From Escherichia phage vB_EcoS_UALMA_PCEc3, in sequence record PQ314493: 44,679 nt of DNA, one strand, 5' to 3'. Of the stretch, positions 12,589 to 44,679 are shown one piece after another. Position 1 is the stretch's first letter; the number at the start of each line of letters is the position of its first letter. The notes under the pieces were generated by a model that was not told where the DNA came from, ran no database searches, and worked only from the letters and a program-made list of their open reading frames with translations. The position numbers were made by a program, and so were the translations under genes.

Positions 12589-12590
12589 TT

Positions 12591-22571: not shown

Positions 22572-22577
22572 TAAATA

Positions 22578-23874: not shown

Positions 23875-23895
23875 GTTTAGCAATTAGTGCTATTC
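23875..23895 (-). promoter_or_regulatory. palindromic box copy (minus orientation) upstream of Cor-like gene
   Basis: minus-sense gaatagcactaattgctaaac; -10-like TACTAT and leader ccatcgaaacgaaac follow. Confidence 0.55.
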
Positions 23896-24137: not shown

Positions 24138-24190
24138 CTTGTTTCCCCTTTTGAGTTTACCTGGAAATAGTACATCACCCATGAGCTTTT

Positions 24191-24213
24191 TCTTTAGCTA
24201 TTTGTGCTATTGC
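24191..24213 (-). promoter_or_regulatory. box variant (minus orientation)
   Basis: minus-sense aatagcacaaatagctaaag. Confidence 0.45.
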
Positions 24214-24299: not shown

Positions 24300-24530
24300 A
24301 CATTAAAATATCTATATATATCAACCTTTTACTCTTATTATTATTATTATATATATTATTATGTATATCGTGTAACTACTTCTATAGAGTGTTCCGGTTA
24401 TAATTTTAATATCATGTGGATTTATACAGTATATAGCAACCAACATAGCAACGCACCATCCGCAATAAATGATATACACGATATACACGATGGTTACATT
24501 GAGCTATAGCTGGGCTTGGATGCCAAGAAG
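24300..24530. repeat. AT-rich intergenic repeat region A (TTA-repeat tract, GTTACGC-type iterons, AGCTATAGCT palindrome)
   Basis: shares ~40-nt and ~30-nt blocks with region 42660-42885. Confidence 0.5.
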
Positions 24531-24671
24531 CGTAACAGGTGCTAATGTCCACACGTAATTACAATGATTCACGCGTAAGTTGAATCAACGATTGGTAAAA
24601 CCAATTGGACTTGTTACGGTGTCGAATATATAGTTAACCCATAGAAAGCAAGCAACCAGAGAGATATAGAA

Positions 24672-24869: not shown

Positions 24870-25835
24870 ATGAGCTTTACTGTTTACACACGAGAAGAAC
24901 TATCAAACTCTGAGTACCACTCTGAGACTGATCACATCTCCGGTAGCTCGCTTGTCGAGATTATCCATGGTTCGCCAGCTAAGTGGAAATTCAAACAGCG
25001 CAATAATGATAGTAAGGCTCTTAAATTTGGCACGCTGTCACATACTTACATCCTAGAAGGTGACATGTTTGATAAAGAATTCCTTCGAGCCACAGACCTT
25101 GACGCGATTGAAGGCTTAATTACAAGCCAGACCGGATTATCGGCAGCGCTGAAAAAAGTTGGCGTTGCTGGCACGTCTGGGAAGGGCTATAGCGAACTTG
25201 TAGAGATGATGTATCGCTCCGGTGAGGATTGGCCTGTTAAGTGGCTAATTGAACAGCAGGAGAGTGCTCAGGCGCTTGTGGAGGGTAGGGAGCTAGTTAG
25301 CGCGGCAGACTATGACAAAGTGGTGGCGATGCGTGAGGTTCTTTGTAATATTCCAGCATATAATGCAATAGTGAACAGCGAGACAGCGCAGAAAGAGCTA
25401 TCAATCTTTGGTGAGATTCTCGGCGTCGGCGTGAAGATTCGAATTGACCACGTTGATGTTGTTGATGGTGTGGTGTGTATTACCGATCTGAAAACGACAG
25501 CCAGCGCATCACCTCAGGAGTTTGGGAGACTTGCATTCAAGCATGGGTATCTTGCAAAAATGGCTCTACAGCACGATGTTTTTGTTATGGCTTTTAATGA
25601 AAAAAGAAAAACAAAAGTAAGGCTACTTGCAATCGAGAAAGAGGAGCCTTACCTACCAATGCTTTACAGCATTACAGAAGAGCAACTGAAGGTTGGTCGC
25701 AGAATGTATTTAGAGGCGCTTGCCACTTACAAAAAGTGCAAAGAGAATGATGTGTGGCCCGGTTATGCAATGGGCGCAACAGAGATCGACCTAGATGTTC
25801 CTGAGTGGGATATGAGGAAGTATAAAGAAATTTAA
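24870..25835 (+). CDS. PD-(D/E)XK recombination exonuclease (RecE/YqaJ-like, putative)
   Basis: nuclease-like D...ITDLKT motif; adjacent to Erf-like and SSB genes. Confidence 0.55.
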   Translation: MSFTVYTREELSNSEYHSETDHISGSSLVEIIHGSPAKWKFKQRNNDSKALKFGTLSHTYILEGDMFDKEFLRATDLDAIEGLITSQTGLSAALKKVGVAGTSGKGYSELVEMMYRSGEDWPVKWLIEQQESAQALVEGRELVSAADYDKVVAMREVLCNIPAYNAIVNSETAQKELSIFGEILGVGVKIRIDHVDVVDGVVCITDLKTTASASPQEFGRLAFKHGYLAKMALQHDVFVMAFNEKRKTKVRLLAIEKEEPYLPMLYSITEEQLKVGRRMYLEALATYKKCKENDVWPGYAMGATEIDLDVPEWDMRKYKEI

Positions 25836-25854
25836 ATAGCACGAATCGCTAAAG
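25834..25854 (+). promoter_or_regulatory. palindromic box copy; -10 TATGAT ~25874-25879
   Basis: aaatagcacgaatcgctaaag. Confidence 0.55.
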
Positions 25855-25908
25855 ACAAAATTAAAAGGTGGGGTATGATTACCCCATCAACAACGAACGA
25901 GGTTAAAG

Positions 25909-26559
25909 ATGCAAATTTCAGAATCATGCAAATCAATTTTAAACGCGCTACACACTGCCAAGTCGCTATTTGCGAAGGCTGAAAAGTCGAAGCAGAACTC
26001 GCACCTTAAGAATAAATACGCCACCCTAGAGGATGTTTTGGCTGCCGTTGAGCCTGGACTGGATGAGTGCGGGCTGGTGATGTTCCAGAGTGTGCTTGAT
26101 GACGAACAAACAAACCGCATGAAGGTTGAGACAAAGCTGTTCCATGCGGAGTCGGGCGAATGGGTTAGCTTCTTAATGATTGTCCCAATCAGCAAGAATG
26201 ATGCTCAGGGTTACGGCTCAGCTTTAACATACGCTCGACGTTATGGAATCACGGCGGCATTAGGACTTAGCCAGGCAGATGATGATGGCAATCTGGCAGC
26301 TAAGGGTGTTAAAGACTTCAAGCGAGAACTTGAGAAGTGCAATACGCTCGATGAGCTTCGCAATGTCTGGAAAGAAGCTAAGCAGTCACTCGACGCGGCA
26401 GGGTGGAAGGTCTTTGAGCCTCACATTATCGAGCGCAAGGCGGAGATTGAAGCAAATGCGATGACTGGCTTCAACCCGGCAACACCAAAGAAAGTTGCAG
26501 AAAAAAGTAGTCCTGAAGAAAAGATTGAAGTAGAATCACAACAAATCGACACATTCTAA
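25909..26559 (+). CDS. Erf-like single-strand annealing protein (putative)
   Basis: N-terminal segment KNKYATLEDVLAAV resembles ERF family; context between exonuclease and SSB. Confidence 0.5.
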   Translation: MQISESCKSILNALHTAKSLFAKAEKSKQNSHLKNKYATLEDVLAAVEPGLDECGLVMFQSVLDDEQTNRMKVETKLFHAESGEWVSFLMIVPISKNDAQGYGSALTYARRYGITAALGLSQADDDGNLAAKGVKDFKRELEKCNTLDELRNVWKEAKQSLDAAGWKVFEPHIIERKAEIEANAMTGFNPATPKKVAEKSSPEEKIEVESQQIDTF

Positions 26560-30936: not shown

Positions 30937-31410
30937 TTACTCTTTAGCTTTTCGTGCTGCTTCGTTAGCCGCCTTAATCTTGCGCCAGGAGCGACACTCT
31001 GGCTTGGTTGCTAGCTCCGCCTCAGTAACCACGCGCAGCATGTGACGCTTTTTGCAGCGCAGGGTTAGAGGCTTTCCGTTGCCATCGAATTGCAGATCTG
31101 GTCGGCAGAATGTAGCGCGAAAACCTTTTCCATTTCGCTTATAGTAGTTGTGCGACAACTGAGCGCCACGCGCAGAAATCATCCCACGCTTAAACCATTC
31201 TTCTACAGCCTGAGGTGTCACCTTTAACTGCTTTGCGATATTTGCCTTTGTGCCGAAGAAATCAAGAACAATCTCTAGCCGCGAGCGTAGCCCGGCTCTT
31301 ACTTCATCTTTTAAAACATAGTAGCCTGAAGGTCGTTTACGTTGCTTTTTGTCTTCGGTGCGGATGGTTCCGTTATTGCCGTTAATGGTTCGCTTGTCAA
31401 CTGCACTCAT
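30937..31410 (-). CDS. HTH DNA-binding protein (putative transcriptional regulator)
   Basis: HTH-like segment NIAKQLKVTPQAVEEWFKRG; basic; first gene of minus-strand operon. Confidence 0.5.
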   Translation of the reverse strand: MSAVDKRTINGNNGTIRTEDKKQRKRPSGYYVLKDEVRAGLRSRLEIVLDFFGTKANIAKQLKVTPQAVEEWFKRGMISARGAQLSHNYYKRNGKGFRATFCRPDLQFDGNGKPLTLRCKKRHMLRVVTEAELATKPECRSWRKIKAANEAARKAKE

Positions 31411-31421
31411 TTCATTACCTC

Positions 31422-31440
31422 AATAGCATTTTTTGTTAAA
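31422..31440 (+). promoter_or_regulatory. degenerate box variant in divergent HTH/helicase intergenic region
   Basis: aatagcattttttgttaaa. Confidence 0.35.
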
Positions 31441-31511
31441 AGTCATTATGATTTGATGGTAGTATTGTACTCAATTAAACGCTACAAGACAATTTTTATA
31501 GGAATTTAGAT

Positions 31512-33722
31512 ATGTTGCCTATCGAGAAGCTGGTTGCAAACTTCGATAAAGAAAGAATCAAGCAGATTCAGAAAGACTATCAGTTTGGTGAGATAACCCC
31601 TTACGAGTTTCAGTGCGTGACATTTGATGCAATCGGAAAGGCTATTGGGAAGTACGAAGCACCATTTATCGCAGACCTTTCCGTATCGGCTGGTAAGACA
31701 ATCATCCTGGCTATGATTGGAAAGCGTATGGAGCAGCTTGGTCTTCCTTATATGGTTCTATCTCGACAGTCAGAGATAATCAGCCAGAACTCAGAAGAGC
31801 TTCGTAATTTCGGCATCCGTAACAGCGTCTATTGCGCTGGCCTTAACGTTAAATCGGTTTACTATCCAACCATAGTTGCCAGCGAGGGTACGGCTGCTAA
31901 CGGATTGTTTAAGGGGCTTGGTGACTATGTTCCGGCTGTTATAGCTATCGATGAGTGTCATATGGTGGACCACATGGATATCGTGGAAGCCGAAGAGAAC
32001 GAAGAAACATTTGAGCAAATGAGCACAAAGAAAGGCGAGATGGTTTTCAAGGATGGTGTTAACACTGGATTAATTGGCACTGGTCGAGCTCAGTACACGC
32101 TAATTATCACTGAGATGAAACGTCGCTGCCGTGAGAAATACGGGAGGGAGCTTAGGATTTTTGGACTAACTGGTAGCCCGTATCGTAACAACGATCATAT
32201 CGTCGTTAGCAACCCAAACATCCGTGGATTCTGGCGCAAGACGGTTATTCAGGTTCCAACCAATTACCTGGTTGATTTAGGTTTCGTTGTTCCCACTGTT
32301 TACGGTGAGGTTGGCGATTTGGGTTATGACCTTGCTGAGTTCGCGCCGGATGGCAGCGATGGTGTGAAAGACTTCAGCAAAAAAGAAATGGATGCTATGC
32401 AGGAAAAAATTCATCAAAACCAGTCCATGACTCAAAAGATTATGCAGTTCGCAGCCAAGTTTATGGAAACTCGTAACGCAGCACTAGTAACTTGCTCAGG
32501 CAAGCGGCATTGCGAGGAAGCAGCCGCGGCGCTTCCTGAGGGTGTAACCTGGGCTATAGTAACTGACTCGACTGGTGAGAAAAAGCGTCGTGAGATTCTT
32601 TCTGACGCAGCTGAAGGTAAGTATACATTCATCTTTCAGATTGGTTGCCTCACAACCGGCGTGAACGTTCCGCCATGGGACACGTCAATAATTCTTCGAA
32701 AGGTTGGTAGCATCACGTTACTGATTCAGCTTTTGGGGCGAGGTATGCGAATCCTTAAGAAGAAACATAAAGAGATGGGGATGGTTAAAAATGACCACGT
32801 AGTTTTAGATTTCGCTGGCACTCTTGATGACATGGCAGAATTATACTTTGACCCAATCATAGAGAAGGTTCAGGATCAGAAATTCAAGTTATCAATGATG
32901 CTTAGTGATAAGCCAAGAGTGTGCCCAGAGTGTTCTTACGAAAATCCTCATTCTGCAGGTCGCTGTAATAATGTGATTTCCGGTAAGCGATGCGAGCACT
33001 TCTTTAAGTTTAAATTATGTGAAGATGTAGTTGACCCGAAGACAAAAGTTATCATTAAGAAGGGTTGCGGAGCGAAGAATGATGTTAAGGCAAAGAGTTG
33101 TCGATGCTGTGGAGAGATGCTTGCGGAGCCGAGAATTTGCCCAGCTTGTTCTTATGAGAACTTCCCATCCGCACGCCGTTGCAATAACTTAATTGAAGGT
33201 AAACGATGTGAGCACTTCTTTCAGTTCACAACTTGCGAAGACATTAAGGACCCGCAAACTAAATCGGTAATTAAAAAGGGATGTGGCGCTCGTAACGATA
33301 TAGCAGCAAAGGCTTGTCGGGAGTGTGGTGAGATGCTTAAAGACCCGAATGTTAACCTGACTGGCAAGATGTATCGTCGTGGTGATTACCTTCGTGTTTA
33401 TGATTTTCAAGTTGGGTTAAGTAAGAATCAGACAGGCGTTGTAGTTAAGTACAATATCATGGCTCATAACGGAGAGAGATTTAACGCTTGGGAGTTCTTT
33501 AATCCAGAATCAGACCATAGAGTTTGCAGTGTGCTGTGGAAAAACTTTTGCCTTGCTCACATTGAAAATCGCGCTGAAGCTGCACGGATTGGTAGGCTGA
33601 AAAATTCTAGGATGATTATGACTAACGTAGATAAGTTTCGCACCCCTGTTCAGGTAACGCACCGCAAGAATAGCAAAGGAAAGGACGTGATAGCTTTTAA
33701 GAACTTTGGAGAATTGTTATGA
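31512..33722 (+). CDS. SF2 DECH-box helicase with tandem C-terminal zinc-ribbon modules
   Basis: Walker A SAGKT, DECH box (AIDECHMV), two ~72-aa Cys-rich repeats. Confidence 0.75.
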   Translation: MLPIEKLVANFDKERIKQIQKDYQFGEITPYEFQCVTFDAIGKAIGKYEAPFIADLSVSAGKTIILAMIGKRMEQLGLPYMVLSRQSEIISQNSEELRNFGIRNSVYCAGLNVKSVYYPTIVASEGTAANGLFKGLGDYVPAVIAIDECHMVDHMDIVEAEENEETFEQMSTKKGEMVFKDGVNTGLIGTGRAQYTLIITEMKRRCREKYGRELRIFGLTGSPYRNNDHIVVSNPNIRGFWRKTVIQVPTNYLVDLGFVVPTVYGEVGDLGYDLAEFAPDGSDGVKDFSKKEMDAMQEKIHQNQSMTQKIMQFAAKFMETRNAALVTCSGKRHCEEAAAALPEGVTWAIVTDSTGEKKRREILSDAAEGKYTFIFQIGCLTTGVNVPPWDTSIILRKVGSITLLIQLLGRGMRILKKKHKEMGMVKNDHVVLDFAGTLDDMAELYFDPIIEKVQDQKFKLSMMLSDKPRVCPECSYENPHSAGRCNNVISGKRCEHFFKFKLCEDVVDPKTKVIIKKGCGAKNDVKAKSCRCCGEMLAEPRICPACSYENFPSARRCNNLIEGKRCEHFFQFTTCEDIKDPQTKSVIKKGCGARNDIAAKACRECGEMLKDPNVNLTGKMYRRGDYLRVYDFQVGLSKNQTGVVVKYNIMAHNGERFNAWEFFNPESDHRVCSVLWKNFCLAHIENRAEAARIGRLKNSRMIMTNVDKFRTPVQVTHRKNSKGKDVIAFKNFGELL

Positions 33723-34138
33723 ATATTAAAGATAAAGAAGATTACATTGAGTTCTACCCGGGTCCTGTTAAATCATGCCCAAAGGAGGATGACGAACAAA
33801 TCTTTTGCTCTGATTGGGTTAAGTATAACTACCCGGAGATGGTATTTTTCCACTGCGTAAATGAGGGGAAGAAAACCATTGGACAGGCAAGAAAGGACCA
33901 GGCTAAAGGGCTACTTAAAGGCGTGTCAGACTGCATGTTTCTTATTCCCGAGTCTCTGCGAGGCAAATACCCTTTCGGAGCTATAGAGCTGAAGAGGGCT
34001 GGCAAAACTCAGGCTAGCCCAGTCAGTGACGAGCAGAAGTCTTTCCTTAAAAGCGTGAGAGAATCAGGGGGTTTCGCTGGGGTTGCCTACGGTAGAGAGG
34101 GTTTTCTGGCAGCGTTTAGAGAAATGATTTCAAAATAG
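33719..34138 (+). CDS. VRR-NUC-like PD-(D/E)XK nuclease (putative)
   Basis: D...IELK...SDEQ motif arrangement; ATGA overlap with helicase stop. Confidence 0.5.
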   Translation: MNIKDKEDYIEFYPGPVKSCPKEDDEQIFCSDWVKYNYPEMVFFHCVNEGKKTIGQARKDQAKGLLKGVSDCMFLIPESLRGKYPFGAIELKRAGKTQASPVSDEQKSFLKSVRESGGFAGVAYGREGFLAAFREMISK

Positions 34139-34153
34139 CACTAATTGCTAAAC
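34133..34153 (+). promoter_or_regulatory. palindromic box copy; -10 TATAGT 34173-34178
   Basis: aaatagcactaattgctaaac; contains TAG stop of VRR-NUC gene. Confidence 0.6.
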
Positions 34154-34216
34154 ACTTATCGCAGGGATGCGATATAGTTACTCCATCGAAACGAAACGCA
34201 CAAAGAGAGAAAGAAA

Positions 34217-35262: not shown

Positions 35263-35345
35263 AGAGCCTGATACTAGTAGCATTAGTCCCACTGTTTAGC
35301 TTTACTATCTTATACTTTATCGTAATGAATTAAGGAACTTATATA

Positions 35346-36476
35346 ATGGCAACTGCAAAAATTACCAACGAAGAGCTGCGCGAAGAACTGGCAAATGGCA
35401 TGACCAACAAGGCAATCGCAGAGAAGTACGGAATGAACATTCGCAATGTTGAGTTGCGTCGCAGTAAATTGGCAAAATCAGGCGAGCTTCATGGAAACCC
35501 TGGTATCAAGAAGTTAGTCCCTGACGGTTATATGGTCAAAGGAACTTCAACGATGATTGACGCGGCGGGTAATGAAAAGCTTCGCTGGGTTAAAACCTCT
35601 GTAGATAATGAGCGCCTTGAGGTTTTAATGGAGCAAGCTAGAGAGGCATTTTGTTCTGAGCTGCCAAAAGCAGATGCGGTCAGCCACTCAGGCAACGAAG
35701 TTAACTCTGAATTAATGACTCTTTACCCTATTTTCGATATCCATATCGGCATGATGGCGCATCGCCATGAATCTGGTGAGAATTATGACACTAACACGGC
35801 AGAGAAATTAATGGAATCATATTTCGACCATGCAATTTCTGTATCACCTGCGTCAGAGAAAGCCGTTGTTTTAGTTGGCGGCGACTTCCTTCACTCTGAC
35901 GGACTGGAGGCAGTAACTCCAGCAAGTGGTCACTGCCTTGATCAAGATAGTAGATATGCTAAGTTAGTTTATGTTGCAATTCGCTCAATTCGTGGTGCCA
36001 TAGAGAAGATGCTTAAGAAGCATAAGAATGTCGAGATTCAGATTATAGAGGGAAATCATGACCAAAGCGGCATGATCTGGCTTCGCGCTGCAATGGCTGC
36101 ATTTTATGAAAACGAGAATCGCGTGTTTGTTGATACCAGTCCAGCAATCATGCACAAGACGCGATTTGGCTCAACGTTACTTGGTTACACACACGGTCAC
36201 ACGATGAAGAAAGCCGAGGGTCGACTTGCGGCAATGGCGACTGACTACCGTAAAGACTTTGGTGAATGTGAATTTGTTTACTGCCACTCAGGACATTTCC
36301 ATCATGCAACTGTTACAGAGTGCACACTTGGTATTGACGAGGTTCACCCAGCACTGGCCAGTAAGGACGCATATGCCGCACGTGGAGGTTGGCGCTCATA
36401 CCGTCAAGCGGCTGCGATAGTTTACCACAAGAATTTTGGCGAGGTTGGTCGCCATATTTACCGCCCAGGCATGTAA
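35346..36476 (+). CDS. HTH-containing metallophosphoesterase (calcineurin-like, putative)
   Basis: N-terminal HTH-like segment; phosphoesterase motifs GDFLHSDG and GNHDQSG with downstream His-rich segments. Confidence 0.5.
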   Translation: MATAKITNEELREELANGMTNKAIAEKYGMNIRNVELRRSKLAKSGELHGNPGIKKLVPDGYMVKGTSTMIDAAGNEKLRWVKTSVDNERLEVLMEQAREAFCSELPKADAVSHSGNEVNSELMTLYPIFDIHIGMMAHRHESGENYDTNTAEKLMESYFDHAISVSPASEKAVVLVGGDFLHSDGLEAVTPASGHCLDQDSRYAKLVYVAIRSIRGAIEKMLKKHKNVEIQIIEGNHDQSGMIWLRAAMAAFYENENRVFVDTSPAIMHKTRFGSTLLGYTHGHTMKKAEGRLAAMATDYRKDFGECEFVYCHSGHFHHATVTECTLGIDEVHPALASKDAYAARGGWRSYRQAAAIVYHKNFGEVGRHIYRPGM

Positions 36477-36496
36477 ATAGCACATTTTGTTAATAA
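36475..36496 (+). promoter_or_regulatory. degenerate box variant followed by hairpin
   Basis: aaatagcacattttgttaataa then gcctcaaaggattgaggc. Confidence 0.4.
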
Positions 36497-36550
36497 AGCC
36501 TCAAAGGATTGAGGCAAAATGAATAAACGATAACGAGATGAGGAGTTATA

Positions 36551-37024
36551 ATGATTTACGTATTTGATATTGACGGAACTATAGCTAATAATGAGCATAG
36601 AAATCACCTTTTACCATCCAGTGACCTTCACTTGACTTCAAGTTGGAAGTATTACAATAAAGCCTGTTCTGGAGACTCACCAATAATCCCAATGATAAAC
36701 ATGATGAACAAACTTGCGGAATTATGTCCTGTTTACATAATGACATCCAGAAGTGATGAAGTTGAATGGAGAACCCTTGAGTGGCTTCAGGATAATAAGG
36801 TTGAGTATGATTCGATATACATGAGAAGTCGACATGACAACCGAAAGGATTACAAAATAAAAGAGGGATGGCTTAATGAAATCAGTGGTGGCGATAAAGG
36901 AAGTGTGGTTATTTTTGAAGATAACCCACAAGTAATTAAGCACCTAAGAAGTTGCGGATACACCGTTATGGCTGTATGTGAATATGAAGAACTACCTAAA
37001 GATTGCGAATCTCACGGAGAATGA
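36551..37024 (+). CDS. HAD-superfamily phosphatase (putative)
   Basis: N-terminal DIDGT motif; box copy upstream. Confidence 0.5.
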   Translation: MIYVFDIDGTIANNEHRNHLLPSSDLHLTSSWKYYNKACSGDSPIIPMINMMNKLAELCPVYIMTSRSDEVEWRTLEWLQDNKVEYDSIYMRSRHDNRKDYKIKEGWLNEISGGDKGSVVIFEDNPQVIKHLRSCGYTVMAVCEYEELPKDCESHGE

Positions 37025-37581
37025 AAATGACTAAATTATTTATCCTTAATGGCCCCGCTGGAGTTGGCAAGGACACTATAGCGGATATCATGGTTGAGAC
37101 TGGTGTAGCCAAAGAAAAGGTATCATTCAAGTCACCAATTTTTAACGTTGCAAAAGGAATGCTATCAAGCGATGAATTTGATGGATTCATCAAGAATTAC
37201 GACAATAGAGACTATAAGGAATCACCTCATGGATTTCTTGGAGGTATGACAGTTCGTGAATTTATGATTTGGATTAGCGAGTCTGTAATGAAGCCAGTCT
37301 TTGGTGATGATATTTTCGGTAAAAGGCTAGCCCAGTCACTTGGTTATGGTTGCTACATTTGCGCTGATGGTGGATTTGCTAGCGAGATTAAGCCACTGAT
37401 CTACGCTGGTGTTGAGGTCACGTTAATCAGATTGCATAGGGCAGGGTACACATTTGATGGCGATAGTCGCTCATACATTCACGGGGTGTGCGCAAGAGAA
37501 ATTGATGTTCGTGTTGTTGATTGTGATATTGATGGAACATCAGCATTTGTAAGGCACGTAATAAATAGCACGAATTGCTAA
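37021..37581 (+). CDS. P-loop nucleotide/nucleoside kinase (putative)
   Basis: Walker A NGPAGVGKDT; ATG 37021 overlaps upstream stop (track start TTG 37003); C-terminus NSTNC encoded by box. Confidence 0.55.
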   Translation: MKMTKLFILNGPAGVGKDTIADIMVETGVAKEKVSFKSPIFNVAKGMLSSDEFDGFIKNYDNRDYKESPHGFLGGMTVREFMIWISESVMKPVFGDDIFGKRLAQSLGYGCYICADGGFASEIKPLIYAGVEVTLIRLHRAGYTFDGDSRSYIHGVCAREIDVRVVDCDIDGTSAFVRHVINSTNC

Positions 37582-37583
37582 AG
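37563..37583 (+). promoter_or_regulatory. palindromic box copy; -10 TATCAT 37603-37608
   Basis: aaatagcacgaattgctaaag; encodes C-terminal NSTNC + TAA of kinase gene. Confidence 0.6.
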
Positions 37584-37649
37584 ATAATAATAAAAACTGA
37601 GTTATCATTAACACATCGAAACGAGATGAAACAAAAGAGGAAGCACAAA

Positions 37650-38659: not shown

Positions 38660-39024
38660 TAATGTGCGCAGCTTTATCTGGGTGCTCAGCAACCTCTGCT
38701 CTGACAGGATTAATTGGCAGTAAGCCAGAGATTAGCGCTCAAGCTGGTGCAGAAAACAATAAGGTTGGTGTTGGTTTAACGAACAGGGTTGACTCAAGTA
38801 ACTCCAGCGATGCCACAGTTAAGGATTCCAGCGTGGGCTCACTGGATAGTTCTAGCGGGAAAAAGACTGCTGATAATTCGATTAAGGCCTCTACAATCAC
38901 TGCCGAAAAGATTGAGATTACCAATAACGACTCATCAGCGCTTCCGTGGATTGGAACAGGAGCGATGGGTTTGCTGGTTATGATTCTCCTTGCCTTAATC
39001 TTAAGACGTAAAAAAGCCTCCTAA
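38635..39024 (+). CDS. unimolecular spanin (T1 gp11-like)
   Basis: lipobox LSGC near N-terminus plus C-terminal transmembrane helix followed by RRKKAS. Confidence 0.65.
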   Translation: MFKRIAALVMCAALSGCSATSALTGLIGSKPEISAQAGAENNKVGVGLTNRVDSSNSSDATVKDSSVGSLDSSSGKKTADNSIKASTITAEKIEITNNDSSALPWIGTGAMGLLVMILLALILRRKKAS

Positions 39025-39038
39025 TGGAGGCTATATTT

Positions 39039-39374
39039 TTAGCTAAATAACTCTTCGTCAGTCATTGTCCCTATGTTCATCATCTCTTTTATGTACTGGC
39101 TTTCATACCCGTTAAGCGCCTCAAAGTTGAAACCAAATGGCCTCTTCAAGCTACCCTTACTAACAAACTCACCGCACTTGCCATCAATGTATCCGGCACT
39201 CAACATCTTTGCGCAGAACTCCTTTGAAGCTGCGATGCAAAAATCTCGATGCGATAACCCCGCCGCCTTACTGAATCTCTGAGAGTCCTTATGCTTGTAG
39301 ATGAATCGCGCCAAATGCTGGCGCGTGAAGTATGAATACGACTCACAGAAGCGGTATAAATCCAAAATAAACAT
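39039..39374 (-). CDS. hypothetical protein (111 aa)
   Basis: ORF from track, last gene of minus-strand operon. Confidence 0.4.
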   Translation of the reverse strand: MFILDLYRFCESYSYFTRQHLARFIYKHKDSQRFSKAAGLSHRDFCIAASKEFCAKMLSAGYIDGKCGEFVSKGSLKRPFGFNFEALNGYESQYIKEMMNIGTMTDEELFS

Positions 39375-39462: not shown

Positions 39463-41046
39463 TCACCCCAGCAATCTCGGATTAATGTAAACTTTATCAC
39501 CAATCAGGCACGTATAGTTTTTCTCATCAAGCATTGGCAGTAGGTGATCTTTAATCTTCGTCATTACTCCAGCCTGAGCCTCGAATGGCTTAACCTTTCG
39601 CGCCGCTTCATACAATGAGCGAATGCCAACAACACCCTTACCGTTTTTACCCTGCTTGATCAGGATATCAATCAGCTTATTCATCTCGGCATTGTCGCCA
39701 GCGTGACCAGCCGCGTTGGCAGATGACAGATAAGTCTTGCTAAGTTCCTGGAACATGATTACAGCTTCCTGCATGGTGTCGAGTTCAATTTCTCTGGACT
39801 TCTGCGGGCTACCGCCGTTAGGGTTGAACCAGTTACGAACAGTATGGAGAACCGCCGCAATCCTGATTGCCTGTTTATCGAACTTACCAAGCGCGCCGCG
39901 CAACATTGTGTGTGAATACTTACCGCCGTCAGCAAGGTGCGGCTCCATTTCCTGACGCGCTCTGTTGAGGTATTTCATTGCCGAGTTACTCACTGTCAAT
40001 TTTACATCTTGCTCATTCATTATTTCGTGAACAAGACGGAAGTAGTCAGCCTTCAGGCAACCATCAATTGGCTCATACGTTGATTCGCCATTTTCATCAA
40101 CGAATACACGCTCACCCAAGAATGACTTTTCACGCACAAGCAGGAAGCGCTCCGATACACCGATACCACGTGCGCCAGCATTCATGATTGCATTGATTGT
40201 TTCATCCTGCGCAATTACCGATATGCAACCCATAGCAACGAAGCTCATGTTGTTCTCTGCGTTCGCACGCGCAATAGATACGTTACCAGCATCCCACGCT
40301 TTAAGCACAAGTTCGCTGTTCGTCTTCTTCGAGCCGTCACCGTAAGTCATTCCCAATAGTGAGTTAACACTCGTTGCCTCATCAGAGATGACCGCGAAGT
40401 TGCCCTGACGGTTGTTTATTCGTGCAAGACCTTCCGGTGTGGTATCTGATACCGGGAATACGATATCGCACAGTTTCTCGAGCTTCTCCTCTAACTCCTC
40501 TTTCTCCTCAAAAAGTGAGGCCATCTCTGATGGTGACTTTTCCTGTTTCATCTCTTTTGATAATGCAGACAGCTTTGCCATAATCTTTTTGCGCTCACGC
40601 TTCCGCACTTCATTAAGCCGCTCAGTCTCAGCGATCATTGGAGCAATTGAGAGCGAGTTAATTGCTGATTTACCTGTCGATGGCGGCTGGCTTGTTACGA
40701 CGTATAGCGAAGTCGGTTGCTGGGTTCCGTGATACTCTACTGTAAAACGTCCCAGCATGGCGGCAGAAATACACCCCATAAAGTGCATATAAGCTGAAGA
40801 CTCTGGAAATTGGACAGAACGGGCAATATTGGCTGACAGCTTACCAACAACATCAATGTCATTACCGAGTGAGATTACGGGATACTTGTCATTAGCCGCA
40901 TCAATCTCGACTGGTGCTTTCCAGAATGATTGAGACTGGCGATAGCCATTGGCATTAATGGCGACTCGCAGTGGCGGGAGGTTGTCTGCGGCAGCAATTG
41001 CCATAACCTGTTCAACAGATAGTTTATCTTCGTTGAAATCAAACAT
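39463..41046 (-). CDS. P-loop NTPase-like protein (deviant Walker A PSTGKS, Walker B VISDE); long paralogue
   Basis: 527 aa; N-terminal ~45 aa and C-terminal ~70 aa homologous to ORF 43459..43983. Confidence 0.55.
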   Translation of the reverse strand: MFDFNEDKLSVEQVMAIAAADNLPPLRVAINANGYRQSQSFWKAPVEIDAANDKYPVISLGNDIDVVGKLSANIARSVQFPESSAYMHFMGCISAAMLGRFTVEYHGTQQPTSLYVVTSQPPSTGKSAINSLSIAPMIAETERLNEVRKRERKKIMAKLSALSKEMKQEKSPSEMASLFEEKEELEEKLEKLCDIVFPVSDTTPEGLARINNRQGNFAVISDEATSVNSLLGMTYGDGSKKTNSELVLKAWDAGNVSIARANAENNMSFVAMGCISVIAQDETINAIMNAGARGIGVSERFLLVREKSFLGERVFVDENGESTYEPIDGCLKADYFRLVHEIMNEQDVKLTVSNSAMKYLNRARQEMEPHLADGGKYSHTMLRGALGKFDKQAIRIAAVLHTVRNWFNPNGGSPQKSREIELDTMQEAVIMFQELSKTYLSSANAAGHAGDNAEMNKLIDILIKQGKNGKGVVGIRSLYEAARKVKPFEAQAGVMTKIKDHLLPMLDEKNYTCLIGDKVYINPRLLG

Positions 41047-41101
41047 TACTTCTCTCCGTGTTGTTTCTGAGCGGCCATTATATCAACGACCGCTTATAAT
41101 T

Positions 41102-41122
41102 CATTATCAATTTGTGCTATTT
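41102..41122 (-). promoter_or_regulatory. box variant (minus orientation) upstream of NTPase-like gene
   Basis: minus-sense aaatagcacaaattgataa. Confidence 0.45.
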
Positions 41123-41471
41123 ACAGGTACTGGGCCTCAAAATGGTACGTCTGGCAAAGAGTGTAAAATCCAACATCCTCGCTACGGTAGAGCTGCCAGG
41201 CATTACCATCCTCATCGTAAATGTAACCAGCGGATTGACCTAGTCCAGCGTGAAGGTTAACCTGGTAACGTTTCTCTTCTTTAAAGTCTTTTTTAACTCC
41301 TGATTTATGGTTAACCTTAGTACAGTAAATAGTTTTGGTCTTAATGTATTTGCCGCGCTCTTCCAGGTTAATCCATTTGCCATCTTTCTTGATTTGTTCT
41401 ACACCATCTTTAACTCGAGCTTTGTATAATACGTTATCGTTGCTAATGAAGTTTTTAGTAATCGTTGTCAT
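41121..41471 (-). CDS. hypothetical Lys-rich protein (116 aa)
   Basis: ORF from track; stop overlaps box copy. Confidence 0.45.
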   Translation of the reverse strand: MTTITKNFISNDNVLYKARVKDGVEQIKKDGKWINLEERGKYIKTKTIYCTKVNHKSGVKKDFKEEKRYQVNLHAGLGQSAGYIYDEDGNAWQLYRSEDVGFYTLCQTYHFEAQYL

Positions 41472-41532
41472 TTTGTTTGCCTTTTTGTGTTTCGTTTCGA
41501 TGAGATGAATATACAGGAAAAGCCCCGAAGGG

Positions 41533-41553
41533 CTTTAGCAATTCGTGCTATTG
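41533..41553 (-). promoter_or_regulatory. palindromic box copy (minus orientation) followed by hairpin and conserved leader
   Basis: minus-sense aatagcacgaattgctaaag then gcccttcggggc then ctcatcgaaacgaaac. Confidence 0.5.
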
Positions 41554-41696
41554 CGGGCTTTTTCTATCGCCTTAAGCATAATTTCATGACTCTCCAGCAA
41601 GTCTTCGCGAAACCAATCACCGCAAGGCCAGCCCTTTCCGCTATAGGCACTTATGACCTCAAGATCGAAATAATTTATCTCAGATGGTAGAAGCAT
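41535..41696 (-). CDS. small protein (53 aa) ending NSTNC
   Basis: short ORF whose last codons are the box; not in track. Confidence 0.25.
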   Translation of the reverse strand: MLLPSEINYFDLEVISAYSGKGWPCGDWFREDLLESHEIMLKAIEKARNSTNC

Positions 41697-42130: not shown

Positions 42131-42310
42131 TCAAACAAATGGCAGGCATTCTGCGCAGCCAAGTCCATCGCAGCACAGGAATTCATCTTCTGACTGGAAT
42201 TGCCTGGCAATGTCAATATCAATCTTGTCGAGCAGAACAAGTGCGGTGTAAATCTCATTCAACCCAATCAGTGCGCATTCGTGGCGTAACTCGTCTTTAT
42301 CAATCTTCAT
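42131..42310 (-). CDS. small Cys-rich protein (59 aa, C-terminal CCDGLGCAEC)
   Basis: short ORF, first gene of minus-strand operon downstream of operator-like array; not in track. Confidence 0.3.
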   Translation of the reverse strand: MKIDKDELRHECALIGLNEIYTALVLLDKIDIDIARQFQSEDEFLCCDGLGCAECLPFV

Positions 42311-42399
42311 ATCTATCTCCTCGTTTTGATGAGTTAACTATATCCTCCATGACCCCCAATGTCTTTAGCAAAAAGTGCTACTCGTTAGATTTATGTATT

Positions 42400-42462
42400 G
42401 TTGCAGATATTGCAATGATTCACATGATTATTGCACATATGGCAATATTGCTTCAGATGCAA
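42400..42462. promoter_or_regulatory. array of operator-like palindromes (TTGCA/ATTGC half-sites)
   Basis: TTGCAgatatTGCAA (42400-42414), ATTGCacatatgGCAAT (42429-42445), ATTGCttcagatGCAAT (42446-42462). Confidence 0.45.
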
Positions 42463-42659
42463 TGATGTTTTTGATTGTTGCGAAAAGTGAAATGAAGTGG
42501 TGAGTGAGTGAATGAAAGATGGATGGACTACCATACAAGTTGATTTTGATTCCCGCTGAGCCATTTCTAAGCTGACACGTAACGCCTGTAGCGCGATGTA
42601 AGCCAATGCCTATCGTTACGCTAGTTACGCGAAGCTACGCCCAGACTTACACTATAAGT

Positions 42660-42885
42660 GCCTAATATATATATATATCTTCTTTCTATTATTATTATTA
42701 TTATTAATATTATTGTATGTAAGTCATGTAACAGGGGTCCTGGCGATATCTATATGTTTTTTCCTATCAGTTATAGCCGAGGCTATAATTTAGGGTATGG
42801 TGGGGGTGTTTTGGGGATGTTTGCCTCGTTACACGCACGACACGCTACTCACATTGAGCTATAGCTGGGCTGGCATGCCATTTCG
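42660..42885. repeat. AT-rich intergenic repeat region B (paralogous to 24300-24530)
   Basis: shared acattgagctatagctgggc block and (tta)n tract; multiple cgtaacg/gttacgc copies nearby. Confidence 0.5.
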
Positions 42886-42979
42886 CGTAACGACCCCCAA
42901 AAGTTACCAAGAATTACACTTGACTACACGTGTAAGTCGGGATATTATGGACTCAACTTAAACGAGAGGAGTGATAGAG

Positions 42980-43459
42980 ATGAGCGAGAAGGTAACATTA
43001 GGCCAAGTGATTCGTGAGATGGTAAAAGCAGCGCTTAAGTCTGAGGATAAGCAGATCAGCGTGACACTCAACAAGATTGAGAGCCTTATTGGTGCCGAAG
43101 ATGGTGGCCTACACAAGCTTAAGAGCTCATACATCTATAATACAACGGCTCGCATGCCTGAGTTGAGAGATGCAGGACTGAAGGCAACTCACCATTATGA
43201 TGAGGATGAGGGTGATAGTGAGTTTGGTGAAACCACTCTGGCTGGAGACAAGAAGCTGGTTATTAAGCTTATTCCCGGCACGGCAAACATTGGAATCAGA
43301 AAGAAGACCAACGACGCGGTCAAGGATGAGGCAATCACTGAGTTCAAGGCCAGGATCTGCAAGTTGATGCCAGACCTATCTGAGTATGAGGGTGAAGCGC
43401 TTGCAGCCGCTATGAAGGCCATTAAGGATTACCGTTTAATTATTGAGGAGATTAAGTAA
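42980..43459 (+). CDS. hypothetical protein
   Basis: track ORF 42971..43459; ATG 42980 after RBS gagagga. Confidence 0.45.
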   Translation: MSEKVTLGQVIREMVKAALKSEDKQISVTLNKIESLIGAEDGGLHKLKSSYIYNTTARMPELRDAGLKATHHYDEDEGDSEFGETTLAGDKKLVIKLIPGTANIGIRKKTNDAVKDEAITEFKARICKLMPDLSEYEGEALAAAMKAIKDYRLIIEEIK

Positions 43460-43983
43460 TGTTTGACTTTAACGAGGATAAACTGACAGAAGAGCAGGTA
43501 ATAGAGATAGCCAAGCAAGATGGAATGCCTCCGCTGCGAATTGCAATCAATGCTAACGGGTATCGACAGTCAACGGCGTTTTGGGGCTCGATTGATATCT
43601 CAGAGGTGTATAGTGGTGATGAGCTTGGTGTACTGATTAAAATCATCAGGAAGATAGGAGTTAACGGCAAAGTAGTTGTCGGCATCAGATCTCTATATGA
43701 AGGCGCTCGCAAGTTAAAGCCATTTGCTGGGCGCGATGGAATGATGCTAGTGATCAAGGACAAGCTAATTCCAGAGCTCGATAAGATGAATGTTACCTGT
43801 CTAATTGGAGATAAGGTTTACTTCAACCCCTCCTTGACGGATTTAAGCTGGCAACCAAACTTCAAAACTTGCGAAGGTGAGCATGTTAGTAGACTACCAT
43901 ACCACTTGCGGTACAGAGAGGAAGAGGTGGAGATGGCGATTGAGTTCCACCGGAAAGCTAAACCACTCCTGAACGGTGAATAG
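43459..43983 (+). CDS. short paralogue of the P-loop NTPase-like protein (lacks NTPase core)
   Basis: MFDFNEDKL...INANGYRQS N-terminus and VVGIRSLYE...TCLIGDKVY C-terminal block shared with 39463..41046. Confidence 0.55.
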   Translation: MFDFNEDKLTEEQVIEIAKQDGMPPLRIAINANGYRQSTAFWGSIDISEVYSGDELGVLIKIIRKIGVNGKVVVGIRSLYEGARKLKPFAGRDGMMLVIKDKLIPELDKMNVTCLIGDKVYFNPSLTDLSWQPNFKTCEGEHVSRLPYHLRYREEEVEMAIEFHRKAKPLLNGE

Positions 43984-43998
43984 CACGGATTGCTAAAC
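43978..43998 (+). promoter_or_regulatory. palindromic box copy; -10 TATAAT 44018-44023
   Basis: gaatagcacggattgctaaac; contains TAG stop of short paralogue. Confidence 0.6.
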
Positions 43999-44047
43999 AA
44001 TGGATCGGGTAGTCAGCTATAATTACCACATCGACAACAAAGAGGAA

Positions 44048-44254
44048 ATGAAGATGAAAACTATGATTATCGAAGATTTCTCAGGTGACATCACTGAGGT
44101 GTCTGCTTCAGTATATTACGACGGCATCGTGAGCATTGACATTGACACGGATAACTTAGGCGATGAAATTACTATGTCTCACTATACACCAGAGCAAGCG
44201 CGCAAACTGGCGGCGGCATTAATCATGGCGGCGGAAGAGTCAGAGAAGCAATGA
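44048..44254 (+). CDS. hypothetical protein
   Basis: track ORF 44000..44254; likely ATG 44048 after cassette leader and RBS agaggaa. Confidence 0.4.
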   Translation: MKMKTMIIEDFSGDITEVSASVYYDGIVSIDIDTDNLGDEITMSHYTPEQARKLAAALIMAAEESEKQ

Positions 44255-44267: not shown

Positions 44268-44486
44268 ATGCAAGTATATACGAATAGTAATGGCGTCGAG
44301 TATTGTGTTGTTTACGGAGTGGTTCTTCGCACTGTTGGTGGCCTCGGGATCATCAACATTTCAGTGATCAAGCCTGAATTACTGGTGAAAGGAATCCAGG
44401 CCGGAATCTTCAGCTTTCACTCAACGCTGACGGCTAAGCAGTATGTTACCCTCGCCAACGCGGTTAAGTACGGTTTTATCAAATAG
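44268..44486 (+). CDS. hypothetical protein (72 aa)
   Basis: ORF from track; TAG stop inside box copy. Confidence 0.4.
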   Translation: MQVYTNSNGVEYCVVYGVVLRTVGGLGIINISVIKPELLVKGIQAGIFSFHSTLTAKQYVTLANAVKYGFIK

Positions 44487-44501
44487 CACTTTTTGTTAAA
44501 A
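44481..44501 (+). promoter_or_regulatory. degenerate box variant
   Basis: aaatagcactttttgttaaaa. Confidence 0.4.
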
Positions 44502-44679
44502 AGGGGATTCATCCTGACTGGTGTAATCCCCACATCAACCAAACAAATGGAAGTTAAGTGACCATATACGAACATAAATTCATCAGTAGGGGTATTGATA
44601 TGCTCCTGCACTATTTAGACGAAAAATACGCAAATCTAATACTTAAGACGCATGGCGGCACAATAACGAGGATTGAGAT

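What the first reader, a model, noticed from the sequence alone, without database searches (positions are those of the whole stretch)
35346..36476. HTH domain fused to a calcineurin-like metallophosphoesterase
The N-terminus has an HTH-like segment (TNKAIAEKYGMNIRNVELRRSKL) and the rest carries phosphoesterase signature motifs (GDFLHSDG, GNHDQSG, His-rich GHTH/GHFHH). A DNA-binding phosphoesterase could act as a nuclease or as a regulator, and it is a candidate binder of the genome-wide box.
Basis: partly seen in the sequence, partly recalled or inferred. Interest (0 to 1): 0.45.

Follow-up and report, generated by a model that had tools for sequence, protein, structure and literature searches.

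The report
HTH-tethered metallophosphoesterase nuclease of T1-like phage
This gene encodes a small DNA-binding-type domain joined to a two-metal phosphoesterase of the Mre11 nuclease type; it is a core but untested gene of T1-like phages and a good candidate for the enzyme that breaks down the host chromosome for nucleotide reuse.

Summary
ORF 35346-36476 (+, 376 aa) encodes an N-terminal three-helix HTH (residues 8-44), a flexible linker, a beta-hairpin plus helix (62-104), and a complete binuclear metallophosphoesterase (MPE) core (120-376). All five catalytic motifs are invariant across the family.

The window is the whole genome of 'Pseudomonas phage PsgS01F', a T1/Rtp-like phage. The gene is already deposited as 'DNA repair exonuclease' (PHROG 704) and is the orthologue of T1 gp16. 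It is a persistent core gene of Drexlerviridae, with thousands of relatives and no characterised member.

Structural neighbours are PolD-DP1, Mre11 and SbcD nucleases. There is no capping domain and no Rad50 partner.

The idea that it binds the genome-wide box is not supported. The box is confined to Drexlerviridae, whereas similar HTHs occur in box-less HK578-like and Jersey-like phages.

The gene recurrently sits beside dNMP kinase, dNMP phosphatase or a 3'-phosphatase. T5 A1, a predicted MPE that degrades host DNA, has the same HTH + MPE layout but is not demonstrably a close relative.

Best reading: a DNA-tethered nuclease, probably for host-DNA breakdown and nucleotide salvage. This is inferred, not shown. 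Interest is moderate to low.

The parts
35346..36476 (+). Complete CDS (376 aa plus stop) of the HTH-metallophosphoesterase; orthologue of phage T1 gp16; PHROG 704
35332..35336 (+). Ribosome-binding site AAGGA, 9 nt before the ATG
   Evidence: Sequence read
35367..35477 (+). N-terminal three-helix HTH (residues 8-44; helices 8-16, 21-27, 32-44; basic third helix IRNVELRRSKLAK); weakly sigma-70 region 4 / LuxR-GerE-like
   Evidence: AF2 model, pLDDT ~94; the single-sequence model also predicts it; GerE E 0.049; family-wide HTH Pfam hits; near-universal N-terminal extension
35478..35528 (+). Flexible linker (residues 45-61) with conserved HGN and P-DG-[FY] motifs
   Evidence: pLDDT falls to 59-71; conservation seen
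35529..35657 (+). Family-specific beta-hairpin (62-71, 77-86; near-invariant W81) plus helix 88-103; retained in HTH-less homologues
   Evidence: the Campylobacter phage homologue starts here
35703..36473 (+). Binuclear metallophosphoesterase core (residues 120-376). Motifs: I D131-x-H133; II G179-D180-xx-H183; III G236-N237-H238-D239; IV H283; V G316-H317-x-H319. Family-specific loops: E142-x-G144 and T191-P-x-S-G-H-x-L-D199-x-D201-x-R203. The protein ends with the core, so there is no capping domain.
34132..34178 (+). Box-type promoter (box 34132-34152, -10 TATAGT 34173-34178) heading the + strand unit of five small ORFs followed by this gene. Transcription from here is inferred.
36474..36495 (+). 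Variant box (AAATAGCACATTTTGTTAATAA) overlapping the stop codon, upstream of the next gene. The same arrangement follows T1 gp16.
36551..37024 (+). Downstream neighbour: phosphatase-only PNKP-type HAD protein (3'-phosphatase type). The functional link is inferred.
   Evidence: PF25109 E 2.1e-15; PHROG 415
37027..37581 (+). Downstream neighbour: dNMP kinase (deposited start 37027; the ORF listing gives a TTG at 37003). The functional link is inferred from recurrent co-location.
   Evidence: PHROG 139 E 1.3e-42; same family next to homologues in 14 prophage loci; PMC13164509

Best explanation
The protein is a DNA-directed binuclear (Mn/Fe-type) metallophosphoesterase nuclease. The N-terminal HTH, on a flexible linker of about 15 residues, holds the enzyme on duplex DNA. 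It probably binds with little or no sequence specificity, or docks on a DNA-bound host protein. The Mre11/DP1-like catalytic core then cleaves phosphodiester bonds.

Its most likely job in T1-like phages is to break down the host chromosome into mononucleotides. The neighbouring 3'-phosphatase would clear blocked ends, and the dNMP kinase would return the products to the dNTP pool for phage DNA synthesis. This is the same logic as the T5 pre-early pair A1 (predicted MPE, host DNA degradation) and Dmp (dNMP phosphatase).

Shown here: the architecture, the intact active site, the fold, family-wide conservation and the gene neighbourhoods.

Inferred: nuclease activity, DNA binding by the HTH, host DNA as the substrate, and coupling to salvage.
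For: 1. Intact active site: all five MPE motifs are invariant or near-invariant in 81-147 diverse representatives.

3. Motif II is GDFLH, which aligns with GDLLH of T. maritima Mre11 and GDFLH of P. putida nuclease MPE. The only NCBIfam hit is PdeM.

4. The HTH is nearly universal in the family. That fits a nucleic-acid substrate better than a small-molecule one.

5. Context. In this phage the gene follows helicase and VRR-NUC genes and precedes a PNKP-type phosphatase and a dNMP kinase. In distant alpha- and beta-proteobacterial prophage loci, dNMP kinase (14 loci) and dNMP 5'-phosphatase (10 loci) recur just downstream. In Campylobacter phage F372 an HTH-less homologue follows a DNA ligase and a Holliday-junction resolvase. 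It is a persistent core gene, in 508 of 522 Drexlerviridae, and polynucleotide kinase and dNMP kinase are the most frequent genes immediately after it in phages lacking the SH3 gene (PMC13164509).

6. T1 and TLS degrade the host genome and reuse the nucleotides, and the responsible gene is unidentified (PMC11447400).

7. Precedents: T5 A1, a predicted MPE with Mre11/proofreading-like features, is necessary and sufficient for host DNA degradation and is encoded near dmp (bioRxiv 10.64898/2026.04.02.716235). A1-family members also carry an N-terminal HTH at residues 3-48. Mycobacteriophage MPE Gp48 disrupts host genomic DNA (PMC12287305).
Against: - No biochemical or genetic data exist for any member of this family.
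- Structure comparison does not resolve the substrate class: Foldseek ranks the cyclic-nucleotide and glycerophospho-diesterases Rv0805 and GpdQ alongside DP1 and Mre11.
- The dNMP-kinase/phosphatase linkage is seen in about three lineages only. It is absent in HK578, the Vibrio phage and RcGingersnap, and the 16 prophage loci are mostly related alphaproteobacterial elements, so they are not independent.
- In T1 itself the PNK gene is elsewhere in the genome.
- The gene lies with replication and lysis genes rather than in the earliest region, so its timing relative to host DNA breakdown is unknown.
- Nothing explains how phage DNA would be spared.
- T5 A1 is not demonstrably a close relative: hhalign probability 15%.
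Confidence: 0.45

Rival explanations
1. Recombination/repair end-processing nuclease acting on phage DNA: a Rad50-independent Mre11-like enzyme. It would trim or open DNA ends, hairpins or blocked termini during recombination-dependent replication and concatemer formation, working with the RecE-like exonuclease, Erf annealase, VRR-NUC resolvase and the 3'-phosphatase.
For: The deposited name is 'DNA repair exonuclease' (PHROG 704). Structural neighbours are Mre11/SbcD. There is a weak PdeM (ligase-associated repair endonuclease) hit. The Campylobacter phage homologue sits next to a DNA ligase and a Holliday-junction resolvase. This phage encodes exonuclease VIII, Erf, SSB and VRR-NUC. The adjacent PNKP-type 3'-phosphatase is an end-healing enzyme.
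Against: There is no Rad50/SbcC partner anywhere in the genome and no capping domain. Recurrent linkage to dNMP kinase and dNMP phosphatase points to nucleotide turnover rather than end repair. This rival is not mutually exclusive with the best explanation.
Confidence: 0.25
2. Transcription factor. The HTH would bind the genome-wide box (ATAGCACnnnTTGnTAAA, centred about -42 of a fixed promoter cassette), or the protein would contact RNA polymerase, to switch phage promoters. The phosphoesterase domain would be accessory or sensory.
For: The HTH is weakly sigma-70 region 4 / LuxR-like. LuxR-type activators typically bind at about -42 (my own knowledge). The box lies 22 nt upstream of the -10 with no usable -35 element, so some factor probably acts there. 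The box's function is unknown (PMC11447400). The gene sits just upstream of the lysis cassette, where late regulators often lie. T5 A1 also interacts with RNA polymerase (bioRxiv 10.64898/2026.04.02.716235).
Against: The box is absent from HK578, ER17 and Vibrio phages that carry the gene. The HTH does not co-vary with the box. Catalytic residues are invariant. HTH-less homologues exist. A dedicated Cro-like regulator is present. Box promoters also head the presumptive earliest genes, which could not wait for a phage-made activator.
Confidence: 0.07
3. Non-nuclease phosphoesterase: an anti-defence enzyme that destroys cyclic or linear nucleotide immune signals, or a small-molecule or protein phosphatase.
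For: Foldseek's top hits include the cNMP phosphodiesterase Rv0805 and GpdQ. The MPE superfamily is catalytically versatile. Phages are known to carry signal-degrading enzymes (PMC9117128, abstract seen).
Confidence: 0.08
4. Proofreading exonuclease subunit of a replicative polymerase (PolD DP1-like), as the annotations 'proof-reading exonuclease' and 'DNA polymerase II small subunit' imply.
Confidence: 0.03

Closest known systems
PHROG 704 / phage T1 gp16 (ST16) family, annotated 'DNA repair exonuclease', 'phosphoesterase' or 'metallophosphoesterase'
   Same: Full-length match at E 1.4e-151. It is 65% identical to T1 gp16 overall, with the same domain order and the same genome position, after helicase and VRR-NUC genes and before the lysis cassette. 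It is a persistent core gene of Drexlerviridae (PMC13164509).
   Different: Nothing material: it is a member. The family name is a prediction, and no member has been tested.
Mre11 / SbcD nucleases
   Different: No capping domain: the protein ends with the MPE core. There is no Rad50/SbcC partner in the genome. It has an N-terminal HTH and a beta-hairpin module instead. Sequence similarity is not significant (E 0.055-0.29).
Bacteriophage T5 A1 (predicted metallophosphatase; host DNA degradation, second-step transfer, RNAP interaction)
   Same: The domain order is the same: N-terminal HTH (A1-family members, residues 3-48) plus a C-terminal MPE-like domain with five motifs (read by eye). Short signatures are shared: NHDxxxSxWL, and ASG 13-15 residues after the motif II Asp. 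Both are encoded near a dNMP-handling enzyme. The paper describes A1's structural neighbours as DSB-repair nucleases and polymerase proofreading subunits, the same classes found here (bioRxiv 10.64898/2026.04.02.716235).
   Different: A1 is 556 aa, with a roughly 250-residue middle region that is absent here. hhalign probability is only 15% over 63 columns, and Pfam does not recognise A1 as Metallophos. A1 is pre-early and restricted to Demerecviridae. T5 excretes the breakdown products, whereas T1 reuses them.
PdeM / nuclease MPE (ligase-associated DNA damage response endonuclease; PDB 6NVO)
   Same: Motif II GDFLH and the motif III region align. It is the best NCBIfam hit. The Campylobacter phage homologue is ligase-adjacent.
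   Different: The score is 18.9 bits against a cutoff of 150. PdeM is about 216 aa and has no HTH or hairpin. There is no Lhr helicase or ligase operon here.
Archaeal PolD small subunit DP1 (3'-5' proofreading exonuclease)
   Different: 13% identity. There is no OB-fold match and no DP2 partner, and the phage has no polymerase.
Mycobacteriophage cluster A MPE (A10ZJ24 Gp48)
   Same: A phage MPE with five motifs that has phosphodiesterase activity and disrupts host genomic DNA (PMC12287305).
   Different: Motif I lies at residue ~10, so there is no N-terminal HTH or hairpin. No detectable sequence relationship was tested or found here.

Membership tests
Calcineurin-like metallophosphoesterase superfamily | Five metal-binding motifs in order: DxH, GD, GNH[DE], H, GHxH | tested here: met
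   D131-x-H133, G179-D180, G236-N237-H238-D239, H283 and G316-H317-x-H319; invariant or >=90% conserved in 81-147 representatives
Calcineurin-like metallophosphoesterase superfamily | Beta-alpha-beta-alpha-beta double-sheet MPE fold | tested here: met
Calcineurin-like metallophosphoesterase superfamily | Pfam PF00149 gathering score (21.5 bits) | tested here: not met
   14.8 bits, E 0.04 for this sequence. 20 of 81 family members hit Metallophos at E <= 0.01. This is a divergent family, and the fold and motifs decide membership.
PHROG 704 (T1 gp16-like 'DNA repair exonuclease') | Full-length profile match | tested here: met
   E 1.4e-151; residues 4-376 against profile positions 2-388 of 390
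Mre11/SbcD | Capping domain C-terminal to the nuclease domain | tested here: not met
Mre11/SbcD | Rad50/SbcC ATPase partner, usually adjacent | tested here: not met
   None among the 78 annotated features or the large ORFs of the genome. None beside homologues in T1, HK578, Vibrio, Rhodobacter or Campylobacter phages.
Mre11/SbcD | Mn2+-dependent 3'-5' exo- and endonuclease activity | not testable with these tools
   Needs a biochemical assay
PdeM / nuclease MPE (TIGR04123) | NCBIfam cutoff of 150 bits and an Lhr/ligase operon context | tested here: not met
   18.9 bits over residues 218-254 only. There is no Lhr or ligase gene in the window.
PolD DP1 | OB-fold plus MPE domain, and a DP2 catalytic partner | tested here: not met
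T5 A1 family | Detectable homology across the MPE-like domain | tested here: inconclusive
   hhalign of family against family gives probability 15%, E 0.0018, 63 columns. hmmsearch aligns only motif III. The architecture (N-terminal HTH + MPE) is shared.
LuxR/GerE or sigma-70 region 4 type HTH | Pfam gathering score for GerE or Sigma70_r4_2 | tested here: inconclusive
   The query scores GerE 13.7 bits against 23.5. A homologue cluster 65% identical to the query carries precomputed PF08281. 9 of 81 members hit Sigma70_r4_2 (best 1.5e-9) and 5 hit GerE (2.4e-8), but others hit HTH_8, HTH_1 or HTH_23. It is a generic tri-helical HTH, and its subclass is not fixed.
LuxR/GerE or sigma-70 region 4 type HTH | Sequence-specific DNA binding | not testable with these tools
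   Comparative test only: there is no co-variation with the Drexlerviridae box

The most novel reading that the evidence does not exclude
The T1 gp16-family HTH-MPE is the long-unidentified nuclease that demolishes the host chromosome in T1-like phages, possibly the classical T1 'host DNA degradation' function. 'N-terminal HTH + Mre11-like MPE' would then be a recurrent phage host-genome-demolition architecture shared with T5 A1. It would be coupled to dNMP kinase or phosphatase genes, and perhaps also contact RNA polymerase through its sigma region 4-like HTH.
Probability: 0.33. Interest if true: 0.55.

Novelty: new member of a known kind. Interest (0 to 1): 0.33.

Why it matters
The gene is present in about 4% of sequenced phage genomes (2,017 of 50,697 records) and in nearly every T1-like phage, yet its name 'DNA repair exonuclease' is only a profile label.

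If it is the host-DNA-degrading enzyme, three things follow:
- It would close a question left open since the 1981 T1 genetics and restated in 2024 (PMC11447400).
- It would explain the high-transduction phenotype of degradation-defective T1 mutants.
- It would identify the step that generates the mononucleotide danger signals (m6dAMP) now known to trigger the Metis and PUA-Cal-HAD defences.

The parallel with T5 A1 (HTH + MPE, next to a dNMP enzyme) would make it a second, more tractable model for how a phage nuclease destroys host DNA while sparing its own.

If instead it is an ordinary recombination nuclease, the result is a better annotation and nothing more.

Tried and rejected
- Single-sequence AlphaFold2 gave a poor model (pLDDT 39; only the HTH was confident). 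It was superseded by the alignment-based model.
- Pfam and NCBIfam on the query alone gave only sub-threshold hits. PADLOC gave nothing.
- PDB sequence searches, single-sequence and profile, found no significant relative, so no homologue has a solved structure.
- Foldseek against the PDB could not separate nuclease from diesterase subfamilies. BFVD returned only uncharacterised phage MPEs.
- The search for related loci with the 81-sequence alignment failed because no stretch was conserved enough. It was repeated with a 6-sequence alignment.
- Box-binder hypothesis: tested by phyletic distribution and HTH co-variation, and rejected as unsupported.
- Membership of the T5 A1 family: tested with hmmsearch and hhalign, and not supported. 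Only the architecture and short signatures are shared.
- Mre11-Rad50-type complex: rejected, because there is no partner and no capping domain.
- Terminase- or packaging-linked nuclease, suggested by its position just before the terminase genes in HK578: not pursued. That position follows from lysis-then-terminase gene order and is not conserved in T1-like phages.
- Literature: no paper on PsgS01F; none linking Drexlerviridae with metallophosphoesterase; no open-access paper on T1 host DNA degradation genes. The Metis, PUA-Cal-HAD and anthracycline papers contain no gene-level data for T1-like phages.
Full report
**What the window is**

The 44,679-base window is the complete genome of 'Pseudomonas phage PsgS01F' (PP134917.1). 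It is read as the reverse complement and rotated: window position = 53007 minus record position, modulo the genome length. The phage is a T1/Rtp-like siphovirus. Over a 4-kb stretch around the gene it is 88-97% identical in nucleotide sequence to E. coli phages such as vB_EcoD_SU57, ACG-M12 and vB_EcoS_FP.

**Observation**

An AAGGA ribosome-binding site lies 9 nt upstream. It corresponds to the deposited CDS 'DNA repair exonuclease'.

The quoted peptide strings are present, except that 'GHTH' is really THGHT.

On the single sequence, Pfam sees both domains only below threshold: Metallophos E 0.04 and GerE E 0.049. Motif spotting alone would therefore not have been proof. The following results settle it:
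- PHROG 704 matches end to end at E 1.4e-151.
- 4,685 cluster representatives at 50% identity match at E <= 0.001.
- 2,017 of 50,697 phage records encode a relative.
- In alignments of 81-147 representatives sharing only 31-57% identity with the query, the five MPE motifs are invariant or nearly so: D131-x-H133, G179-D180, G236-N237-H238-D239, H283, G316-H317-x-H319.

**Anatomy**

The alignment-based AlphaFold2 model is confident, with mean pLDDT 92.3 and pTM 0.78. It shows:
- A three-helix HTH: helices 8-16, 21-27 and 32-44.
- A low-confidence linker, residues 45-61.
- A long beta-hairpin (62-71, 77-86; near-invariant W81) followed by helix 88-103.
- An MPE core from residue 120 to the C-terminus.

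The protein ends with the last strands of the core, so there is no Mre11-type capping domain.

The HTH is a family trait:
- 145 of 147 representatives have at least 25 residues before the hairpin (median 73).
- 105 are connected to the query's HTH by iterative HMM, and the rest show obvious HTH-like segments.
- Individual members hit HTH_8, HTH_1, Sigma70_r4_2, HTH_23 and GerE. It is a generic tri-helical HTH whose subclass is not fixed.
- A minority of homologues lack it, for example the 317-aa protein of Campylobacter phage F372. The hairpin plus MPE is therefore the core, and the HTH is an almost constant add-on.

**Fold and nearest families**

Foldseek mixes Rv0805, GpdQ, DP1 and Mre11. 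A profile search of PDB sequences finds only weak hits, with T. maritima Mre11/SbcD first (E 0.055) and GerE/LuxR-type effector domains for the N-terminus (E ~0.1). No homologue has a solved structure.

Motif II has the GDxxH form, which aligns with T. maritima Mre11 (GDLLH) and P. putida nuclease MPE (GDFLH). The only NCBIfam hit is the repair endonuclease PdeM, far below its cutoff.

The fold is therefore certain. The nuclease subclass is favoured but not proven.

**Context in this phage and in relatives**

The gene lies in a + strand block:
- Helicase with two zinc ribbons (31512-33722).
- VRR-NUC (33719-34138).
- A box-type promoter (34132-34178).
- Five small ORFs.
- The HTH-MPE gene.
- A phosphatase-only PNKP-type HAD protein (36551-37024).
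- A dNMP kinase (37027-37581).
- Small ORFs, then endolysin and spanin.

The genome has no Rad50/SbcC, ligase or DNA polymerase gene. T1 has the orthologue gp16 in the same relative position.

[quoted passage not shown] In phages lacking the SH3 gene, polynucleotide kinase and dNMP kinase were the most frequent genes immediately after the exonuclease (PMC13164509).

Outside this phage family, the gene again lies close to lysis genes in HK578, RcGingersnap and a Vibrio phage.

In 58 proteobacterial chromosomal loci, evidently prophages, the recurrent neighbours are:
- Endolysin: 14 loci.
- An S1-like protease: 14 loci.
- dNMP kinase, PHROG 139: 14 loci, mostly downstream.
- dNMP 5'-phosphatase, PHROG 318: 10 loci, 2-4 ORFs downstream by my ORF count.

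Sixteen loci have at least one of the two dNMP enzymes. These loci are mostly alphaproteobacterial and therefore not independent. Even so, the link to deoxynucleotide-handling enzymes appears in at least three lineages.

In Campylobacter phage F372 the HTH-less homologue directly follows a DNA ligase and a Holliday-junction resolvase.

All of these contexts concern DNA or deoxynucleotide metabolism.

**The box**

The genome-wide box is real: 17 matches to ATAGCACNAATTGCTAAA at up to 3 mismatches, against 0.23 expected. It is the upstream element of a fixed cassette of about 75 nt:
- The box.
- A 22-nt spacer.
- TATAaT.
- A conserved CAtCgAAACGAaA leader.
- A ribosome-binding site, then the ATG at about +73.

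The cassette always points at the downstream gene.

The box was described in phage TLS as a 21-nt repeat (aaATAGCACnnnTTGnTAAAA), also present in T1 and Rtp, with no known function (PMC11447400).

- The box occurs 19, 19 and 8 times in PsgS01F, T1 and a Klebsiella Webervirus. It does not occur in HK578, Jerseyvirus ER17 or a Vibrio phage, all of which have the gene.
- The ATAGCAC core is not enriched in HK578 or ER17.
- Over residues 1-46, the HTH of box-less HK578 (48% identity) and ER17 (52%) is as close to the query as that of the box-bearing Webervirus (48%). The third helices are alike: IRNVELRRSKLAK, LRNVYMRKARLSK and RRNVQLRSARLAK.

So there is no co-variation, and the proposal is not supported. 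A Cro-like regulator conserved in T1-like phages (window 30937-31410, minus strand) is the more obvious candidate. I did not test it.

**Mechanism proposed**

T1 and TLS degrade the host chromosome and reuse its nucleotides. In 2024 the TLS authors stated that the responsible gene product had not been identified (PMC11447400).

In T5, the predicted metallophosphatase A1 has structural features of double-strand-break repair nucleases and polymerase proofreading subunits. It is necessary and sufficient for host DNA degradation, and it also interacts with RNA polymerase (bioRxiv 10.64898/2026.04.02.716235). It is encoded two genes from the dNMP phosphatase Dmp.

I found that A1-family members carry an HTH at residues 3-48, with some hits above Pfam's gathering scores. 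The HTH + MPE layout is therefore shared.

A1 also shows all five MPE motifs by eye and two short signatures of our family: NHDxxxSxWL, and ASG 13-15 residues after the motif II Asp. However, profile-profile comparison gives only 15% probability over 63 columns. I treat A1 as an analogue with a parallel architecture, not as a family member.

A mycobacteriophage MPE without an HTH also disrupts host DNA (PMC12287305).

Putting this together, the best explanation is a DNA-tethered binuclear metallonuclease that breaks down DNA, most likely the host chromosome. Its products would be handled by the neighbouring 3'-phosphatase and dNMP kinase.

Confidence that it is a DNA-acting nuclease is about 0.65-0.7. 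Confidence in the host-degradation and salvage role specifically is about 0.4-0.45.

The main rival is a Rad50-independent end-processing nuclease for phage recombination and repair. That is compatible with the ligase and resolvase neighbours and with the annotation. The two roles are not exclusive.

**Novelty and score**

The protein is a member of a catalogued but uncharacterised family, so it is a new member of a known kind. Its domain composition is already hinted at in database names such as 'phosphoesterase' and 'sigma-70 region 4 domain-containing protein'.

This analysis adds:
- The family-wide architecture.
- The negative result for the box.
- The recurrent dNMP-enzyme linkage.
- The architectural parallel with T5 A1.

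Interest is moderate to low (0.33). It would rise if the host-DNA-degradation role were confirmed.

Noticed in passing
window 255-336, 975-1056, 1150-1230, 1717-1798, 5523-5604, 12590-12670, 25833-25914, 31420-31510, 34132-34213, 36474-36555, 37562-37643, 43977-44057, 44480-44560 (+ strand); 23800-23896, 24120-24213, 41030-41123, 41460-41554, 42290-42384 (- strand): The genome-wide box is the upstream element of a fixed promoter/leader cassette of about 75 nt: aaATAGCACnaATTGCTAAA, then 22 nt, then TATAaT, then a conserved CAtCgAAACGAaA leader, then an RBS and the ATG at about +73. It always points at the downstream gene. The 22-nt spacing leaves no usable -35 element, and the box centre is at about -42. 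T1 has 21 copies. The repeat is described for TLS/T1/Rtp (PMC11447400), but its binder and function are unknown.
   Followed up: partly
window 30937-31410 (-): A Cro/P22-Cro-like HTH 'transcriptional regulator' (PHROG 2856, E 1e-83) conserved in T1 (gp23) and Webervirus. It lies between the primase gene and the divergently oriented helicase gene. It is a more natural candidate than the HTH-MPE for binding the box, but was not tested.
   Followed up: no
whole window: The record names Pseudomonas syringae pv. garcae as the host. Yet the genome is a typical enterobacterial Rtp/T1-like phage: 88-97% nucleotide identity to E. coli phages over a 4-kb stretch, and 95-98% protein identity for this gene to many gut and sewage metagenome contigs. 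T1-like phages are notorious laboratory contaminants (PMC13164509 abstract), so the host assignment deserves checking.
   Followed up: no
window 36551-37024 and 37027-37581 (+): The gene deposited as 'polynucleotide kinase' has only the HAD 3'-phosphatase domain (157 aa; PF25109) and no kinase domain. The next gene, deposited as hypothetical, is a dNMP kinase (PHROG 139, E 1e-42).
   Followed up: partly
window 31512-33722 (+), C-terminal part: The 736-aa helicase carries two tandem copies of a zinc-ribbon module of about 65 residues: CPxCSYEN...RCNN..GKRCEHFF.F..CED..DP.TK..IKKGCGA.ND..AK.CR.CGEML. Pfam reports one DZR (double zinc ribbon) match at residues 519-559.
   Followed up: no
window 24307-24349 / 42664-42706 and 24475-24536 / 42830-42891: Two separate stretches, 43 and 62 nt long, are repeated about 18.36 kb apart at 77-84% identity. 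Each pair includes an AT-rich (ATT)n-like tract. This suggests a duplicated small gene or regulatory region.
   Followed up: no
window 2853-2930 (+) and about 2937-3035: ARAGORN finds one tRNA-Arg(TCT). The record also annotates an adjacent 99-nt 'tRNA-Ile', which ARAGORN does not call.
   Followed up: partly
L091 (T5) 1706-3376 and proteins P0344, P0345, P0370, P0382: Distant homologues of T5 A1 (45-48% identity) have a clear N-terminal HTH (HTH_23/HTH_7, residues 3-48, above Pfam gathering scores). Pfam detects none in T5 A1 itself. The C-terminal half of A1 shows all five MPE motifs by eye, although Pfam reports no domain.
   Followed up: partly
L008 (HK578) 42294-43436; L010 (Vibrio phage) 12109-13356; L003 (RcGingersnap) 5962-7122: Across unrelated phage groups the HTH-MPE gene sits next to the lysis cassette: before it in T1-like phages; after it in HK578 and RcGingersnap; between two genes annotated as endolysins in the Vibrio phage. 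The reason for this recurrent placement is unexplained.
   Followed up: partly
window 5947-5992, 8863-8899, 12563-12599, 13584-13629, 16984-17029, 22573-22618, 39009-39054: A family of similar GC-rich hairpin plus T-run terminators (for example AACCCGCTTCGGCGGGTTTTTT) punctuates the structural gene block, much like the 'transcripton' layout annotated in T1.
   Followed up: no
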